Of a stretch of 64,000 nt of DNA, positions 610-49,546 are shown in pieces. The DNA is taken from positions 8,934 to 72,933 of the forward strand of contig DYGI01000001.1 in the NCBI GenBank assembly GCA_020724805.1. The letters run 5' to 3'. Source of the DNA: Candidatus Microgenomatus sp. Its GTDB lineage: Bacteria; Patescibacteriota; Minisyncoccia; UBA6257; GWB1-50-10. Positions within the stretch are counted from its first letter, which is position 1; each line of letters begins with the position of its first letter. A program made the translations under genes and the position numbers. The notes beneath the pieces were generated by a model. That model was not told the origin of the DNA, searched no databases, and saw only the letters and a program-made list of their open reading frames with translations.

Positions 610-683
610 TGGTGGACCCAGGGAGAATCGAACTCCCGACTCGGCAATGCGAATGCCGCGTAATACCACTTTACTATGGGCCC
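610..683 (-). tRNA. tRNA-Ala (anticodon CGC), CCA encoded
   Basis: Hand-folded cloverleaf: acceptor GGGCCCA/TGGGTCC with G3:U70, anticodon loop UUCGCAU, T-loop TTCGATT, 3' CCA present. Confidence 0.75.
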
Positions 684-690
684 GCAGCGA

Positions 691-722
691 GAAGTAAAAA
701 GATGATAACATCTTTTTACTTC
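691..722. promoter_or_regulatory. conserved hairpin in 5' leader of tRNA-Ala(CGC)
   Basis: Perfect 14-bp hairpin gaagtaaaaagatg-ataa-catctttttacttc immediately upstream (tRNA sense) of the tRNA 5' end. A homologous hairpin and flanks occur upstream of tRNA-Ala(GGC) at 49435-49464. Confidence 0.4.
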
Positions 723-773
723 GAGCGAGGGTACACGTCGACGAAGTCGACATAGGCCCGGATTTAAAAATCC

Positions 774-922
774 TGTCGGGGCATTGGGAAGCGAACGTCG
801 CTTCGCTCCCTGAAACCCTTCGGTTTCAGTACTTCCGGCGCGGGAAACCTCTCCTTTGCGGTTTCCCGACCCCTTCCCTGTCCGATTCCCAGCACGACGG
901 GAAGAAACTCGTGCCGAATTTG
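774..922 (-). mobile_element. tRNA-flanking structured insert, family A (Pro copy)
   Basis: 774-790 is a 17-nt direct repeat of the tRNA-Pro 3' end (tgtcggggcattgggaa). A ~130-bp insert follows with hairpins 810-829 (ctgaaacc-CTTC-ggtttcag) and 841-868 (cgggaaacc...ggtttcccg). Homologous to inserts at 38346-38543 and 39501-39654. Confidence 0.5.
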
Positions 923-3465: not shown

Positions 3466-3539
3466 CTAAATCGATTGTATCCTCAAAAATCCCGGTTCGC
3501 AAAAGAAAAAGCCGCACCCCCTCGATGCGGCCGAAATCT

Positions 3540-3713: not shown

Positions 3714-3772
3714 AACACGGCTCCTTATGTGGTTGAACTAACATAAGTATATCGGATATACTTTTTTCGTTC

Positions 3773-8587: not shown

Positions 8588-8588
8588 G

Positions 8589-8660
8589 TACCGGGGGGGA
8601 GGATCGAACTCCCGACCTAGGGCTTATGAGTCCCTCGCTCTACCACTGAGCTACCCCGGC
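8589..8660 (-). tRNA. tRNA-Met family (anticodon CAU), no encoded CCA
   Basis: Acceptor GCCGGGG/CCCCGGU, anticodon loop CUCAUAA, GGG/CCC in anticodon stem, T-loop TTCGATC. Confidence 0.6.
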
Positions 8661-8747
8661 GAGTAATGAGCGAAATATGCAGGTATGCATATTTCCGAAT
8701 TACGATGCCGTGGAACGGCGCAAAGCGCAAGTACCCCGGCGAGTAAT
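8661..8747. repeat. direct repeat of tRNA 5' end/flank plus hairpin
   Basis: 16-nt taccccggcgagtaat at 8652-8667 and again at 8732-8747; intervening 9-bp hairpin aaatatgca-ggta-tgcatattt. Confidence 0.35.
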
Positions 8748-8815
8748 ATGGGTATGTTTGTTATAACTATTTATCGTTTTTTTGACAAATCGTTTCCTGA
8801 ATCTATAATGCTCAC

Positions 8816-48610: not shown

Positions 48611-48635
48611 CCAAAAAAACCAGGGAATGGCTCAT

Positions 48636-48670
48636 GAAAACATCCGCCAATTGGCGGATGTTTTCATTTC
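48636..48670 (+). terminator. rho-independent terminator
   Basis: 13-bp hairpin gaaaacatccgcc-aatt-ggcggatgttttc followed by atttc. Confidence 0.55.
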
Positions 48671-48961: not shown

Positions 48962-48992
48962 GCTATCTCCTTGAGTTATGAATGTGCTGTTG

Positions 48993-49079
48993 CGGAGAGG
49001 GTGGGATTCGAACCCACGAAGGGATTGCTCCCTTACTGCATTTCGAGTGCAGCGCCTTCGGCCACTCAGCCACCTCTCC
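48993..49079 (-). tRNA. tRNA-Ser (anticodon CGA), long variable arm
   Basis: Acceptor GGAGAGG/CCTCTCC, anticodon loop CUCGAAA, T-loop TTCGAAT. Confidence 0.8.
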
Positions 49080-49080
49080 G

Positions 49081-49152
49081 TGCCCCCAGGAGGAATCGAA
49101 CTTCCATCTTCTCCTTAGGACGGAGCCGCTCTATCCGTTGAGCTATGGGGGC
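49081..49152 (-). tRNA. tRNA-Arg (anticodon CCU)
   Basis: Acceptor GCCCCCA/TGGGGGC, anticodon loop GUCCUAA with G27:A43 mismatch, T-loop TTCGATT; 1 nt after tRNA-Ser. Confidence 0.6.
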
Positions 49153-49314
49153 ATTACTTATATATAAAGTAAATTTCCGCTATTTACAAAATCGTCCTGC
49201 AATATGCGCCGTTACTTATAGCAATTATCATGGAGTTTGTAGTATCGGGCGTGGGAATGTTGCAATTAAAAGGAAACTTGTTAATCTAGGTACGCTGTTT
49301 TGTAAAAGAGTGCT

Positions 49315-49386
49315 GCGCGCATAGCTCAGTGGTAGAGCGCGTCGTTGACATCGACGAGGTCCCAAGTTCGATCCTTGGTGCGCGCA
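49315..49386 (+). tRNA. tRNA-Val (anticodon GAC)
   Basis: Acceptor GCGCGCA/TGCGCGC, anticodon loop UUGACAU, T-loop TTCGATC. Confidence 0.8.
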
Positions 49387-49434
49387 CTGAAATTTTTGGG
49401 CCATATCAACGACGTCGATATGAACCCTCGCTCG

Positions 49435-49464
49435 GAACAAAAAGATGGTATCATCTTTTTGTTC
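49435..49464. promoter_or_regulatory. conserved hairpin in 5' leader of tRNA-Ala(GGC)
   Basis: 13-bp hairpin gaacaaaaagatg-gtat-catctttttgttc with ccctcgctcg / ctcgctacg flanks; homologous to 691-722 with a compensatory g-c/c-g swap. Confidence 0.4.
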
Positions 49465-49472
49465 CTCGCTAC

Positions 49473-49546
49473 GGGCCTATAGTAAAACGGCATTACGCTT
49501 CCATGGCATGGAAGAGGTCGGGGTTCAATTCCCCGTAGGTCCACCA
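49473..49546 (+). tRNA. tRNA-Ala (anticodon GGC), CCA encoded
   Basis: Acceptor GGGCCTA/TAGGTCC with G3:U70, anticodon loop AUGGCAU, T-loop TTCAATT, 3' CCA. Confidence 0.8.

What the first reader, a model, noticed from the sequence alone, without database searches (positions are those of the whole stretch)
660..735. Conserved 5'-leader hairpin shared by both tRNA-Ala genes, with a compensatory stem change
In tRNA sense both Ala genes are preceded by ccctcgctcg-[13/14-bp hairpin]-ctcgctRcGGGCC. The hairpins (gaagtaaaaagatg..catctttttacttc at 691-722; gaacaaaaagatg..catctttttgttc at 49435-49464) differ by a g-c to c-g swap that preserves pairing. This suggests a conserved processing or regulatory element specific to tRNA-Ala precursors, or a duplicated promoter/leader module.
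Basis: seen in the sequence. Interest (0 to 1): 0.5.

Follow-up and report, generated by a model that had tools for sequence, protein, structure and literature searches.

The report
Twin-hairpin leader cassette at tRNA genes
The hairpin is real, but it is one half of a roughly 75-base two-hairpin cassette inserted in front of several tRNA genes (not only alanine) in a small group of uncultured Paceibacteria, each copy preceded by a decoy copy of the tRNA's first bases; its function is not known.

Summary
Both tRNA-Ala genes are preceded by CCCTCGCTC, a perfect 14-bp hairpin, then TCGCTRC and the tRNA. Three stem pairs differ between the two copies, and all three are compensated.

The hairpin (H2) is only the 3' half of a 75-76-nt module. 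The module also has an upstream hairpin (H1), whose 5' strand copies the tRNA's own 5' end (GGGCCyATrT).

At orthologous tRNA-Ala(GGC) genes, one related genome (L005) carries the module with a perfect 12-nt junction repeat. Four other relatives lack it (0-, 10- and 21-nt spacers, or an unrelated upstream region).

The same layout recurs at other tRNAs: junction repeat, decoy-closed H1, TCGYTCG, H2, then the tRNA. It occurs at tRNA-Arg(GCG) and tRNA-Met in this window, at tRNA-Arg(CCT) in L005, and at tRNA-Glu in another Paceibacterota contig. One empty Arg(GCG) site was found in L005.

No Rfam family, terminator, phage or viral match fits.

Best reading: a lineage-restricted insertion cassette at the leader/tRNA junction. 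It is kept under structural constraint, transcribed as a 5' leader, and possibly carries a -10-like element (TGnTATCAT) in the H2 loop. It is not specific to tRNA-Ala, and it is not a duplication that included the tRNA. Function is unproven.

The parts
610..683 (-). tRNA-Ala(CGC), intact gene, CCA encoded
   Evidence: ARAGORN; Rfam tRNA 64.2 bits
684..690 (-). Single-stranded tail TCGCTGC between H2 and tRNA +1
   Evidence: Sequence; fold
691..722 (-). H2: perfect 14-bp AT-rich hairpin, loop TTAT. The loop plus 3' arm reads TGtTATCAT (extended -10-like), and its TATCAT hexamer ends 18 nt before tRNA +1
   Evidence: the repeat finder I9; fold -16.2 kcal/mol, z -8.2; TATNAT scan
723..731 (-). 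Invariant CCCTCGCTC. The CCC closes H1, and TCGCTC(G) is the motif shared with the Arg, Met and Glu modules
   Evidence: Exact match at both Ala loci; alignment A2
729..759 (-). H1: GGGCCTATGTCGAC-TTC-GTCGACGTGTACCC. Its 5' strand (750-759, GGGCCTATGT) is a decoy copy of the tRNA-Ala 5' end (GGGCCCATAGT)
   Evidence: Fold; pair counts; junction repeat, best seen in the L005 homologue at 12/12
49398..49427 (+). H1 of the second copy, GGGCCATATCAACGACGTCGATATGAACCC. With the preceding tgaaattttt it is orthologous to the Val-Ala junction of L137
49425..49433 (+). Invariant CCCTCGCTC
49434..49465 (+). H2 of the second copy: perfect 14-bp hairpin, loop GTAT (TGgTATCAT)
49466..49472 (+). Tail TCGCTAC
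49473..49546 (+). tRNA-Ala(GGC), intact gene, CCA encoded
38616..38695 (-). Module of the same architecture in front of tRNA-Arg(GCG) (38543-38615): junction repeat CGCTTGCCCTCGT, H1, GCATCGTTCG, H2 with TATGAT. The orthologous site in L005 is empty
8661..8747 (-). Module of the same architecture in front of tRNA-Met(CAT) (8588-8660): perfect 16-nt junction repeat ATTACTCGCCGGGGTA, H1, GCATCGTAATTCG, and a 10-bp perfect AT-rich H2
   Evidence: (I6)

Best explanation
The hairpin is the second stem-loop (H2) of a 75-76-nt two-hairpin cassette inserted at the leader/tRNA junction of both tRNA-Ala genes.

Layout, 5' to 3':
- a decoy copy of the junction (the last leader bases plus roughly the first 9 nt of the tRNA);
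- an inverted copy that pairs with the decoy to form H1;
- TCGCTCG;
- the perfect AT-rich hairpin H2;
- a 7-nt tail;
- the real tRNA.

Shown here: this architecture; filled and empty orthologous sites in close relatives; the same architecture and shared motifs at Arg, Met and Glu tRNA genes of Paceibacteria; placement at isoacceptor genes that share a 5' end; and compensated evolution of both stems.

Inferred:
1. The cassette arose by a sequence-directed insertion or recombination event that duplicated the junction, comparable to an att-type duplication left by an integrating element. It then spread between tRNA genes with the same 5' strand.
2. It is transcribed as part of the pre-tRNA and removed by RNase P at the real +1.
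3. H1 persists because it sequesters the decoy acceptor strand, which could otherwise compete with the real 5' strand for the tRNA's 3' acceptor strand.
4. H2 keeps the AU-rich segment self-contained. Its loop (TGnTATCAT, with a purine 7 nt downstream) may act as an internal promoter for the tRNA.
For: - Architecture and folds.
- Junction-spanning direct repeats lie 75-87 nt upstream of the tRNA. Examples are L005 Ala 12/12, window Met 16/16, window Arg(GCG) 12/13, nested repeats at L005 Arg(CCT), and repeats at L040 Glu. In total 5 of 50 Paceibacteria tRNAs score at least 20, against 0 of 16 control tRNAs.
- Filled sites: window and L005 Ala(GGC). Empty sites: L137 (10-nt Val-Ala spacer whose sequence matches the window's spacer plus decoy), L130 (0 nt), L007 (21 nt), L135 (unrelated upstream).
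- The window Arg(GCG) site is filled and the L005 Arg(GCG) site is empty. The window's module is a full-length homologue of the L005 Arg(CCT) module.
- Compensation: 5 pairs changed on both sides, 97% of cells paired, 0 of 500 shuffles as high.
- The W2 and L005 modules are 83% identical. Flanking coding DNA is 75-77% identical and PGI protein 72%.
- A TATNAT hexamer lies at -24 in all Ala copies and at -33 in three Arg copies.
- L007 carries a displaced 36-nt 5' half of tRNA-Ser(TGA) 53 nt upstream of an intact gene. This shows that 5'-side replacement happens in this lineage.
- Precedent for a tRNA 5' fragment left upstream by an integrated element: PMC3293823.
Against: - No recombinase, transposase or reverse transcriptase was found in the 18 window ORFs tested, and no phage or viral match.
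- Integrases normally duplicate the 3' part of a tRNA gene, not the 5' part.
- The inserts are only about 60-70 nt, far too small for an autonomous element.
- In the two window Ala copies the decoy repeat is weak on its own (8/9 and a shifted match). It is convincing only through the L005 homologue and the L137 junction.
- The promoter idea fails the two-hexamer scan, and no TATNAT is present in the Met and Glu modules.
- Sense and antisense strands fold equally well, so nothing here shows that the structure acts as RNA.
- Only three Ala-type copies exist, and L040 was found with a pattern that required the hairpin core.
Confidence: 0.45

Rival explanations
1. A dedicated structured RNA element of pre-tRNA leaders. 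H1 would be an acceptor-like minihelix (about 12 bp, starting at a G) that tRNA-processing enzymes cut. H2 would be a processing or stability hairpin. Together they would separate polycistronic tRNA transcripts or tune maturation. On this view the module is kept for that function, whatever its origin.
For: - Both stems evolve by compensated changes, and the module is conserved above the level of neighbouring coding DNA.
- H1 is close to 12 bp in several modules, and H2 ends 7-13 nt before the cleavage site.
- Two G-U pairs lie on the tRNA-sense strand of the window H1.
- The modules lie between co-oriented tRNA genes: Val-Ala, Pro-Ala, Arg-Ala.
Against: - Most orthologous tRNA-Ala genes do without it.
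- There is no strand bias in folding energy, and one A-C mismatch would be a G-U only on the antisense strand.
- All four H2 stems are perfect Watson-Crick pairs with no wobble, which is unusual for RNA stems.
- No Rfam family matches.
Confidence: 0.25
2. A DNA-level promoter or operator. The palindrome would overlap the tRNA-Ala promoter (extended -10 TGnTATCAT) and serve as a binding site for a dimeric regulator or as a melting-prone element. The hairpin as such would be irrelevant.
For: - TGnTATCAT in the loop and 3' arm is invariant in all three Ala copies, with a purine 7 nt downstream.
- The Arg modules carry TATAAT or TATGAT at -33.
- Other tRNA genes here have canonical promoters close to +1, e.g. 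TTGACA-17-TATAAT ending 5 nt before tRNA-Met at 8815.
Against: - The outer stem positions differ between two sites in the same genome yet stay complementary. A shared protein site would not require that.
- No -35 element at proper spacing.
- The Met and Glu modules lack TATNAT.
- H2 sequences differ between module types, so no common operator exists.
Confidence: 0.12
3. Functionless palindromes created and kept perfect by replication template switching or fold-back repair at tRNA genes. On this view the compensated changes are mutational, not selected.
For: - H1 is literally the tRNA 5' end followed by its inverted copy, and all H2 stems are perfect.
- Template switching is documented to create perfect hairpins and apparent compensatory changes (PMC8794818).
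Against: - It does not explain the direct junction repeat or the shared non-palindromic motifs (TCGYTCG, CTCRCT).
- It does not explain 83% conservation between species whose PGI proteins are only 72% identical.
Confidence: 0.1
4. A recent local duplication of a leader-plus-tRNA-Ala segment, or an intrinsic terminator of the upstream tRNA.
For: The two leaders are 79% identical, and in each case the leader follows another tRNA gene or a copy of a tRNA 3' end.
Against: - The tRNAs are distinct isoacceptors (CGC and GGC), 77% identical and 49 kb apart. L005 carries the module at the orthologous GGC gene, so it is not recent.
- The stem is AT-rich and followed by CTCGCT, not a T run. No terminator was called there.
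Confidence: 0.04

Closest known systems
att-site duplications left by elements that integrate into tRNA genes (tyrosine-integrase islands, cis-mobilisable remnants, tandem accretion)
   Same: A direct repeat of part of the tRNA gene brackets the inserted DNA, and the gene stays intact. Filled and empty sites occur among relatives, and repeats are nested at one gene (L005 Arg(CCT), L040 Glu). An archaeal case with a tRNA 5' fragment left upstream is published (PMC3293823).
   Different: The repeat covers the 5' junction (about -7 to +9), not the usual anticodon-loop or T-loop to 3' end. The insert is only about 60-70 nt. No recombinase was found. The insert always forms a hairpin with the decoy.
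Miniature palindromic repeats of bacteria (REP, MITE, IS200/IS605-derived palindrome elements)
   Same: Short, non-coding, hairpin-forming, present in several copies, and flanked by short direct repeats.
   Different: Copies are seen only at tRNA 5' junctions. There are no terminal inverted repeats. The direct repeat varies from 12 to 16 nt or more and matches the tRNA. H1 differs for each tRNA.
tRNA-like processing signals (plant mitochondrial t-elements, acceptor/T-arm minihelix substrates of RNase P and RNase Z)
   Same: H1 starts with the tRNA's own 5' acceptor strand and forms a stem of about 12 bp, the length RNase P measures on a tRNA.
   Different: There is no T-loop-like loop and no tRNA-like Rfam hit, and cleavage is untested. 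The Ala H1 has G3-C, not the G3:U70 identity pair.
Hairpins created by replication template switching
   Same: Perfect arms, apparent compensatory changes, and an inverted copy lying directly next to its source sequence (PMC8794818).
   Different: The direct junction repeat and the conserved single-stranded motifs are not predicted by that mechanism.

Membership tests
Intrinsic (Rho-independent) terminator | G+C-rich stem directly followed by a T run | tested here: not met
   No terminator-like site was called at H1 or H2 at either locus. The H2 stem has 4-5 G-C pairs of 14 and is followed by CTCGCT.
Sigma-70 promoter | -35 and -10 hexamers 16-18 nt apart | tested here: not met
   No two-hexamer match in either leader.
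Sigma-70 promoter | Extended -10 (TGnTATAAT) that can work without a -35, with a purine start about 7 nt downstream | tested here: inconclusive
   TGnTATCAT is invariant in three Ala copies at -24, with A or G 7 nt downstream. The shuffle probability of a TATNAT is 0.08-0.14 per module, and no start-site data exist.
Any described RNA family (Rfam 15, including T-box and other leaders) | Covariance-model match at or near the gathering score | tested here: not met
   Only tRNAs pass the threshold. The best hits on H2 are chance-level at 17-20 bits.
REP / MITE-type dispersed palindromic repeats | Many dispersed copies not tied to one kind of gene | tested here: inconclusive
   Only two Ala-type copies occur in 64 kb, both at tRNA-Ala. 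The rest of the 570-kb genome could not be read.
REP / MITE-type dispersed palindromic repeats | Terminal inverted repeats and a target duplication of fixed length | tested here: not met
   The module ends are not inverted repeats. Junction repeats are 12, 13, 16 and about 23 nt.
Integrase-type att duplication at a tRNA gene | Direct repeat of part of the tRNA gene flanking the insert, with the gene left intact | tested here: met
   The tRNAs are intact by ARAGORN and Rfam.
Integrase-type att duplication at a tRNA gene | Empty site in related genomes | tested here: met
   Ala(GGC) is empty in L137, L130, L007 and L135. Arg(GCG) is empty in L005.
Integrase-type att duplication at a tRNA gene | The repeat is the 3' part of the tRNA, and a recombinase gene lies in or near the element | tested here: not met
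   The repeat is the 5' junction. None of 18 window ORFs scanned is a recombinase, though not all ORFs were scanned.
IS200/IS605-derived palindrome elements | Similar subterminal hairpins at both ends, no target duplication, fixed 4-5-nt target | tested here: not met
   H1 and H2 are unrelated in sequence, and a 12-16-nt duplication is present.
tRNA-like processing signal (minihelix / t-element) | Cleavage by RNase P at the base of the acceptor-like stem | not testable with these tools
   Only the fold is available: H1 stems of about 11-13 bp starting at the decoy +1.

The most novel reading that the evidence does not exclude
Paceibacteria may harbour an undescribed family of about 65-75-nt cassettes that home to the 5' junction of tRNA genes sharing a given acceptor 5' strand. 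Each cassette would duplicate that strand as a decoy locked in a hairpin and install a second perfect hairpin with a promoter-like loop. That would be either a new kind of tRNA-5'-end-specific mobile or recombinational element, or a decoy-acceptor leader RNA that controls tRNA maturation.
Probability: 0.25. Interest if true: 0.75.

Novelty: new variant of a known kind. Interest (0 to 1): 0.5.

Why it matters
Elements that integrate into tRNA genes are known almost entirely from the 3' side. Bacterial pre-tRNA leaders are usually treated as short and unstructured.

A recurrent, structurally constrained cassette that duplicates the 5' junction of tRNA genes would point in one of two directions. 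One is an unrecognised way in which tRNA loci are remodelled in very small genomes; tRNA order is visibly shuffled among these relatives. The other is a leader RNA that manages a decoy acceptor strand during tRNA processing.

Either reading can be tested with 5'-end mapping and RNase P assays. If the cassette turns out to be only a decaying recombination scar, it is a minor curiosity of one lineage.

Tried and rejected
1. The metagenome scan with AAAAAGATGNNNNCATCTTTTT was too loose. 
2. The genome-contig scan with CCTCRCTC-N28-40-GGGCCNATAGTAAA gave one chance hit in a coding region. The flanks are therefore not found in this exact form in GTDB species representatives, and the window's own species is evidently not among them.
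3. Viral and phage searches for the module and for the 3'-side element found nothing.
4. Synteny around tRNA-Ala(CGC) was explored through homologues of the neighbouring 181-aa protein. Relatives have no tRNA there, so no further Ala(CGC) leaders were obtained.
5. Simple tandem duplication of promoter, leader and tRNA 5' end is rejected. The sequence upstream of the decoy is unrelated to the insert even where the repeat is perfect (Met, 16/16).
6. The idea that all tRNA leaders in this genome carry such hairpins is rejected. Only the two Ala leaders are in the top ~1% of stability; Met, Gly and Ser(TGA) are around 10-12%, and the rest are ordinary.
7. A strand test (sense versus antisense folding, G-U counts) showed no consistent bias, so it cannot separate RNA-level from DNA-level structure.
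8. My early impression that the leader is more conserved than the tRNAs was wrong. The figures are 79% for the leaders and 77% for the tRNAs.
9. A pseudo-tRNA or known small-RNA identity for the leader found no support.

Full report
**Observation**

The window carries 18 tRNA genes. It encodes ordinary cellular functions: RecG, LigA, LeuRS, a CCA-adding enzyme, PilB, PheRS and TyrRS. The source contig is a 570,864-bp JGI metagenome contig. The nearest named relatives are Candidatus Brennerbacteria, Jorgensenbacteria and Paceibacterota, which are CPR/Patescibacteria.

The hairpins lie at 691-722 and 49434-49465. They are among the strongest short inverted repeats in the window. They fold at -16.2 and -18.1 kcal/mol with z-scores of -8.2 and -6.5. 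Their core pattern occurs twice against 0.09 expected. The two copies differ at three stem pairs, all compensated.

**The hairpin is half of a larger module**

The similarity runs 75-76 nt upstream of each tRNA, to 759 and 49398. It contains a second hairpin, H1. The whole leader folds as H1 plus H2 at -35.2 and -30.6 kcal/mol, with z-scores of -7.9 and -7.1.

H1 begins with GGGCCyATrT, a near copy of the tRNA-Ala 5' end, and is closed by the CCC of CCCTCGCTC.

On the three Ala-type copies, 97% of cells pair and 5 pairs change on both sides (4 in H2, 1 in H1). No shuffle out of 500 reaches these values, and slid controls collapse to 39-63% paired. With three sequences this shows that pairing is maintained. 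It does not show by what force.

**Relatives**

Synteny around the PGI gene next to tRNA-Ala(GGC) is conserved, but the four neighbouring tRNA genes are shuffled in order and strand among relatives.

- L005 (PGI 72% identical) has the module in front of tRNA-Ala(GGC), although the upstream tRNA is Arg(CCT) rather than Val. There the junction repeat is perfect: TGCGGGCCCATA occurs both 75 nt upstream and at the real junction.
- L137 has Val, a 10-nt spacer, then Ala. Its sequence GCGCACtgaatctttcGGGCCTATGG matches the window's GCGCACtgaaatttttGGGCCATATC. The window's decoy therefore looks like the old tRNA start.
- L130 has no spacer, L007 has 21 nt, and L135/L136 have an unrelated upstream region.

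The simplest history is an insertion at about +9 of tRNA-Ala(GGC) in the common ancestor of the window organism and L005. The module has since been kept at 83% identity, while flanking genes are 75-77% identical at the DNA level.

**Not specific to alanine**

The same architecture occurs at other tRNA genes:

- Window tRNA-Met(CAT): a perfect 16-nt junction repeat 87 nt upstream and a 10-bp perfect AT-rich H2.
- Window tRNA-Arg(GCG): a 12/13 repeat 80 nt upstream.
- L005 tRNA-Arg(CCT): two nested units.
- L040 tRNA-Glu: two decoys and an 18-bp perfect H2 with the same AAAAAGATG/CATCTTTTT core.

L040 is also a Candidatus Paceibacterota contig. It was found with a pattern that required the hairpin core. 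Only its position 21 nt upstream of a tRNA and its architecture are independent evidence; about 0.2 such placements were expected by chance.

Junction repeats scoring at least 20 occur at 5 of 50 Paceibacteria tRNAs and at 0 of 16 control tRNAs.

All modules share TCGYTCG just 5' of H2 and a CTCRCT-like tail.

The window Arg(GCG) module is a full-length homologue of the L005 Arg(CCT) module, while L005's own Arg(GCG) site is empty. Modules therefore sit at different isoacceptor genes that share a 5' strand, as with Ala(CGC) and Ala(GGC).

L007 adds a related case: a 36-nt 5' half of the ancestral tRNA-Ser(TGA) lies 53 nt upstream of an intact gene with a different 5' half.

**What it is not**

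- No Rfam family matches.
- It is not a terminator.
- It is not a full sigma-70 promoter.
- It matches no phage or viral sequence.
- It was not found in GTDB representative genomes in this exact flanking form.
- It is not a feature of all tRNA leaders here.
- It is not a duplication that included the tRNA, because the two Ala tRNAs are only 77% identical.

**Mechanism**

I read the module as a small insertion or recombination cassette that duplicated the leader/tRNA junction. The nearest analogue is the att duplication left by elements that integrate into tRNA genes, here mirrored to the 5' side. A 5' tRNA fragment left upstream by an integrated element has been described in an archaeon (PMC3293823). 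Nested repeats resemble tandem accretion at one site.

Conservation and compensated stems indicate that the module is now constrained. From established knowledge of tRNA maturation, a leader transcribed from upstream would be removed by RNase P at the real +1.

I infer that H1 neutralises the decoy acceptor strand and that H2 keeps the AU-rich segment folded. The H2 loop reads TGnTATCAT in all Ala copies, with a purine 7 nt downstream. The Arg modules carry TATAAT or TATGAT at -33. An internal promoter is therefore plausible but unproven, and the Met and Glu modules lack such a hexamer.

Sense and antisense strands fold equally well, so RNA-level action is not demonstrated. Template switching (PMC8794818) could account for the perfect arms, but not for the direct repeat or the shared motifs.

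**Verdict**

The element is a new variant of tRNA-gene-associated insertion scars or cassettes. It has an unusual 5'-side decoy and a twin-hairpin design, and its distribution is narrow. Function is unknown. Confidence in the composite explanation is about 0.45.

Noticed in passing
window 775-921 and 39503-39640 (minus strand): A conserved element of about 105 nt (about 93% identical between the two copies) lies downstream of tRNA-Pro(CGG) and tRNA-Ser(GCT). It has two hairpins, GGGAAACC...GGTTTCCC and CTGAAACC-GAA-GGGTTTCAG. In each case it is followed by a duplicate of that tRNA's T-loop-to-3'-end (GTTCGCTTCCCAATGCCCCGAC at 775-796; CGTTCGACTACCTTCCGCCTCCGC at 39503-39526) and a short AT-rich hairpin. 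It looks like a 3'-side counterpart of the 5' modules, or a miniature integrated element. It is absent from the fetched relatives and from viral contigs.
   Followed up: partly
window 48992-49546; L005 4130-4734; L007 449-834; L130 115-485; L137 26-430: The same four tRNA genes (Ser-CGA, Arg-CCT, Val-GAC, Ala-GGC) occur next to the PGI gene in all relatives, but in different orders and orientations. This implies repeated recombination at tRNA boundaries.
   Followed up: partly
L007 1906-1941: A 36-nt 5' half of tRNA-Ser(TGA), 34/36 identical to the window's gene and ending in the anticodon loop, lies 53 nt upstream of an intact tRNA-Ser(TGA) whose 5' half has a different sequence. This is a displaced 5' fragment.
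   Followed up: partly
window 8780-8814, 3466-3505, 49153-49190: Several tRNA genes have near-consensus promoters whose -10 hexamer ends only 5-8 nt before the mature 5' end (e.g. TTGACA-17-TATAAT ending 5 nt before tRNA-Met at 8815). These tRNAs would be made with almost no leader, in contrast to the 75-nt leaders of the module-bearing genes. Most tRNAs here lack an encoded CCA; Ala x2, Arg-TCG and Gly-GCC have it.
   Followed up: no
window 48634-48667: A 17-bp perfect palindrome with no loop (ATGAAAACATCCGCCAA/TTGGCGGATGTTTTCAT). It is also present in the independent assembly L002.
   Followed up: no
window 3735-3771: A perfect 9-bp AT-rich palindrome, AAGTATATC-G-GATATACTT, followed by TTTTT, ends 13 nt before tRNA-Lys(CTT) (the T run ends 8 nt before it). 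It looks more like a terminator of the upstream gene than a module, and it has no junction repeat.
   Followed up: no
L004 10573-10813: A reverse-transcriptase (RVT_1) gene lies at the edge of the syntenic region in the Brennerbacteria relative. No link to the modules was examined.
   Followed up: no
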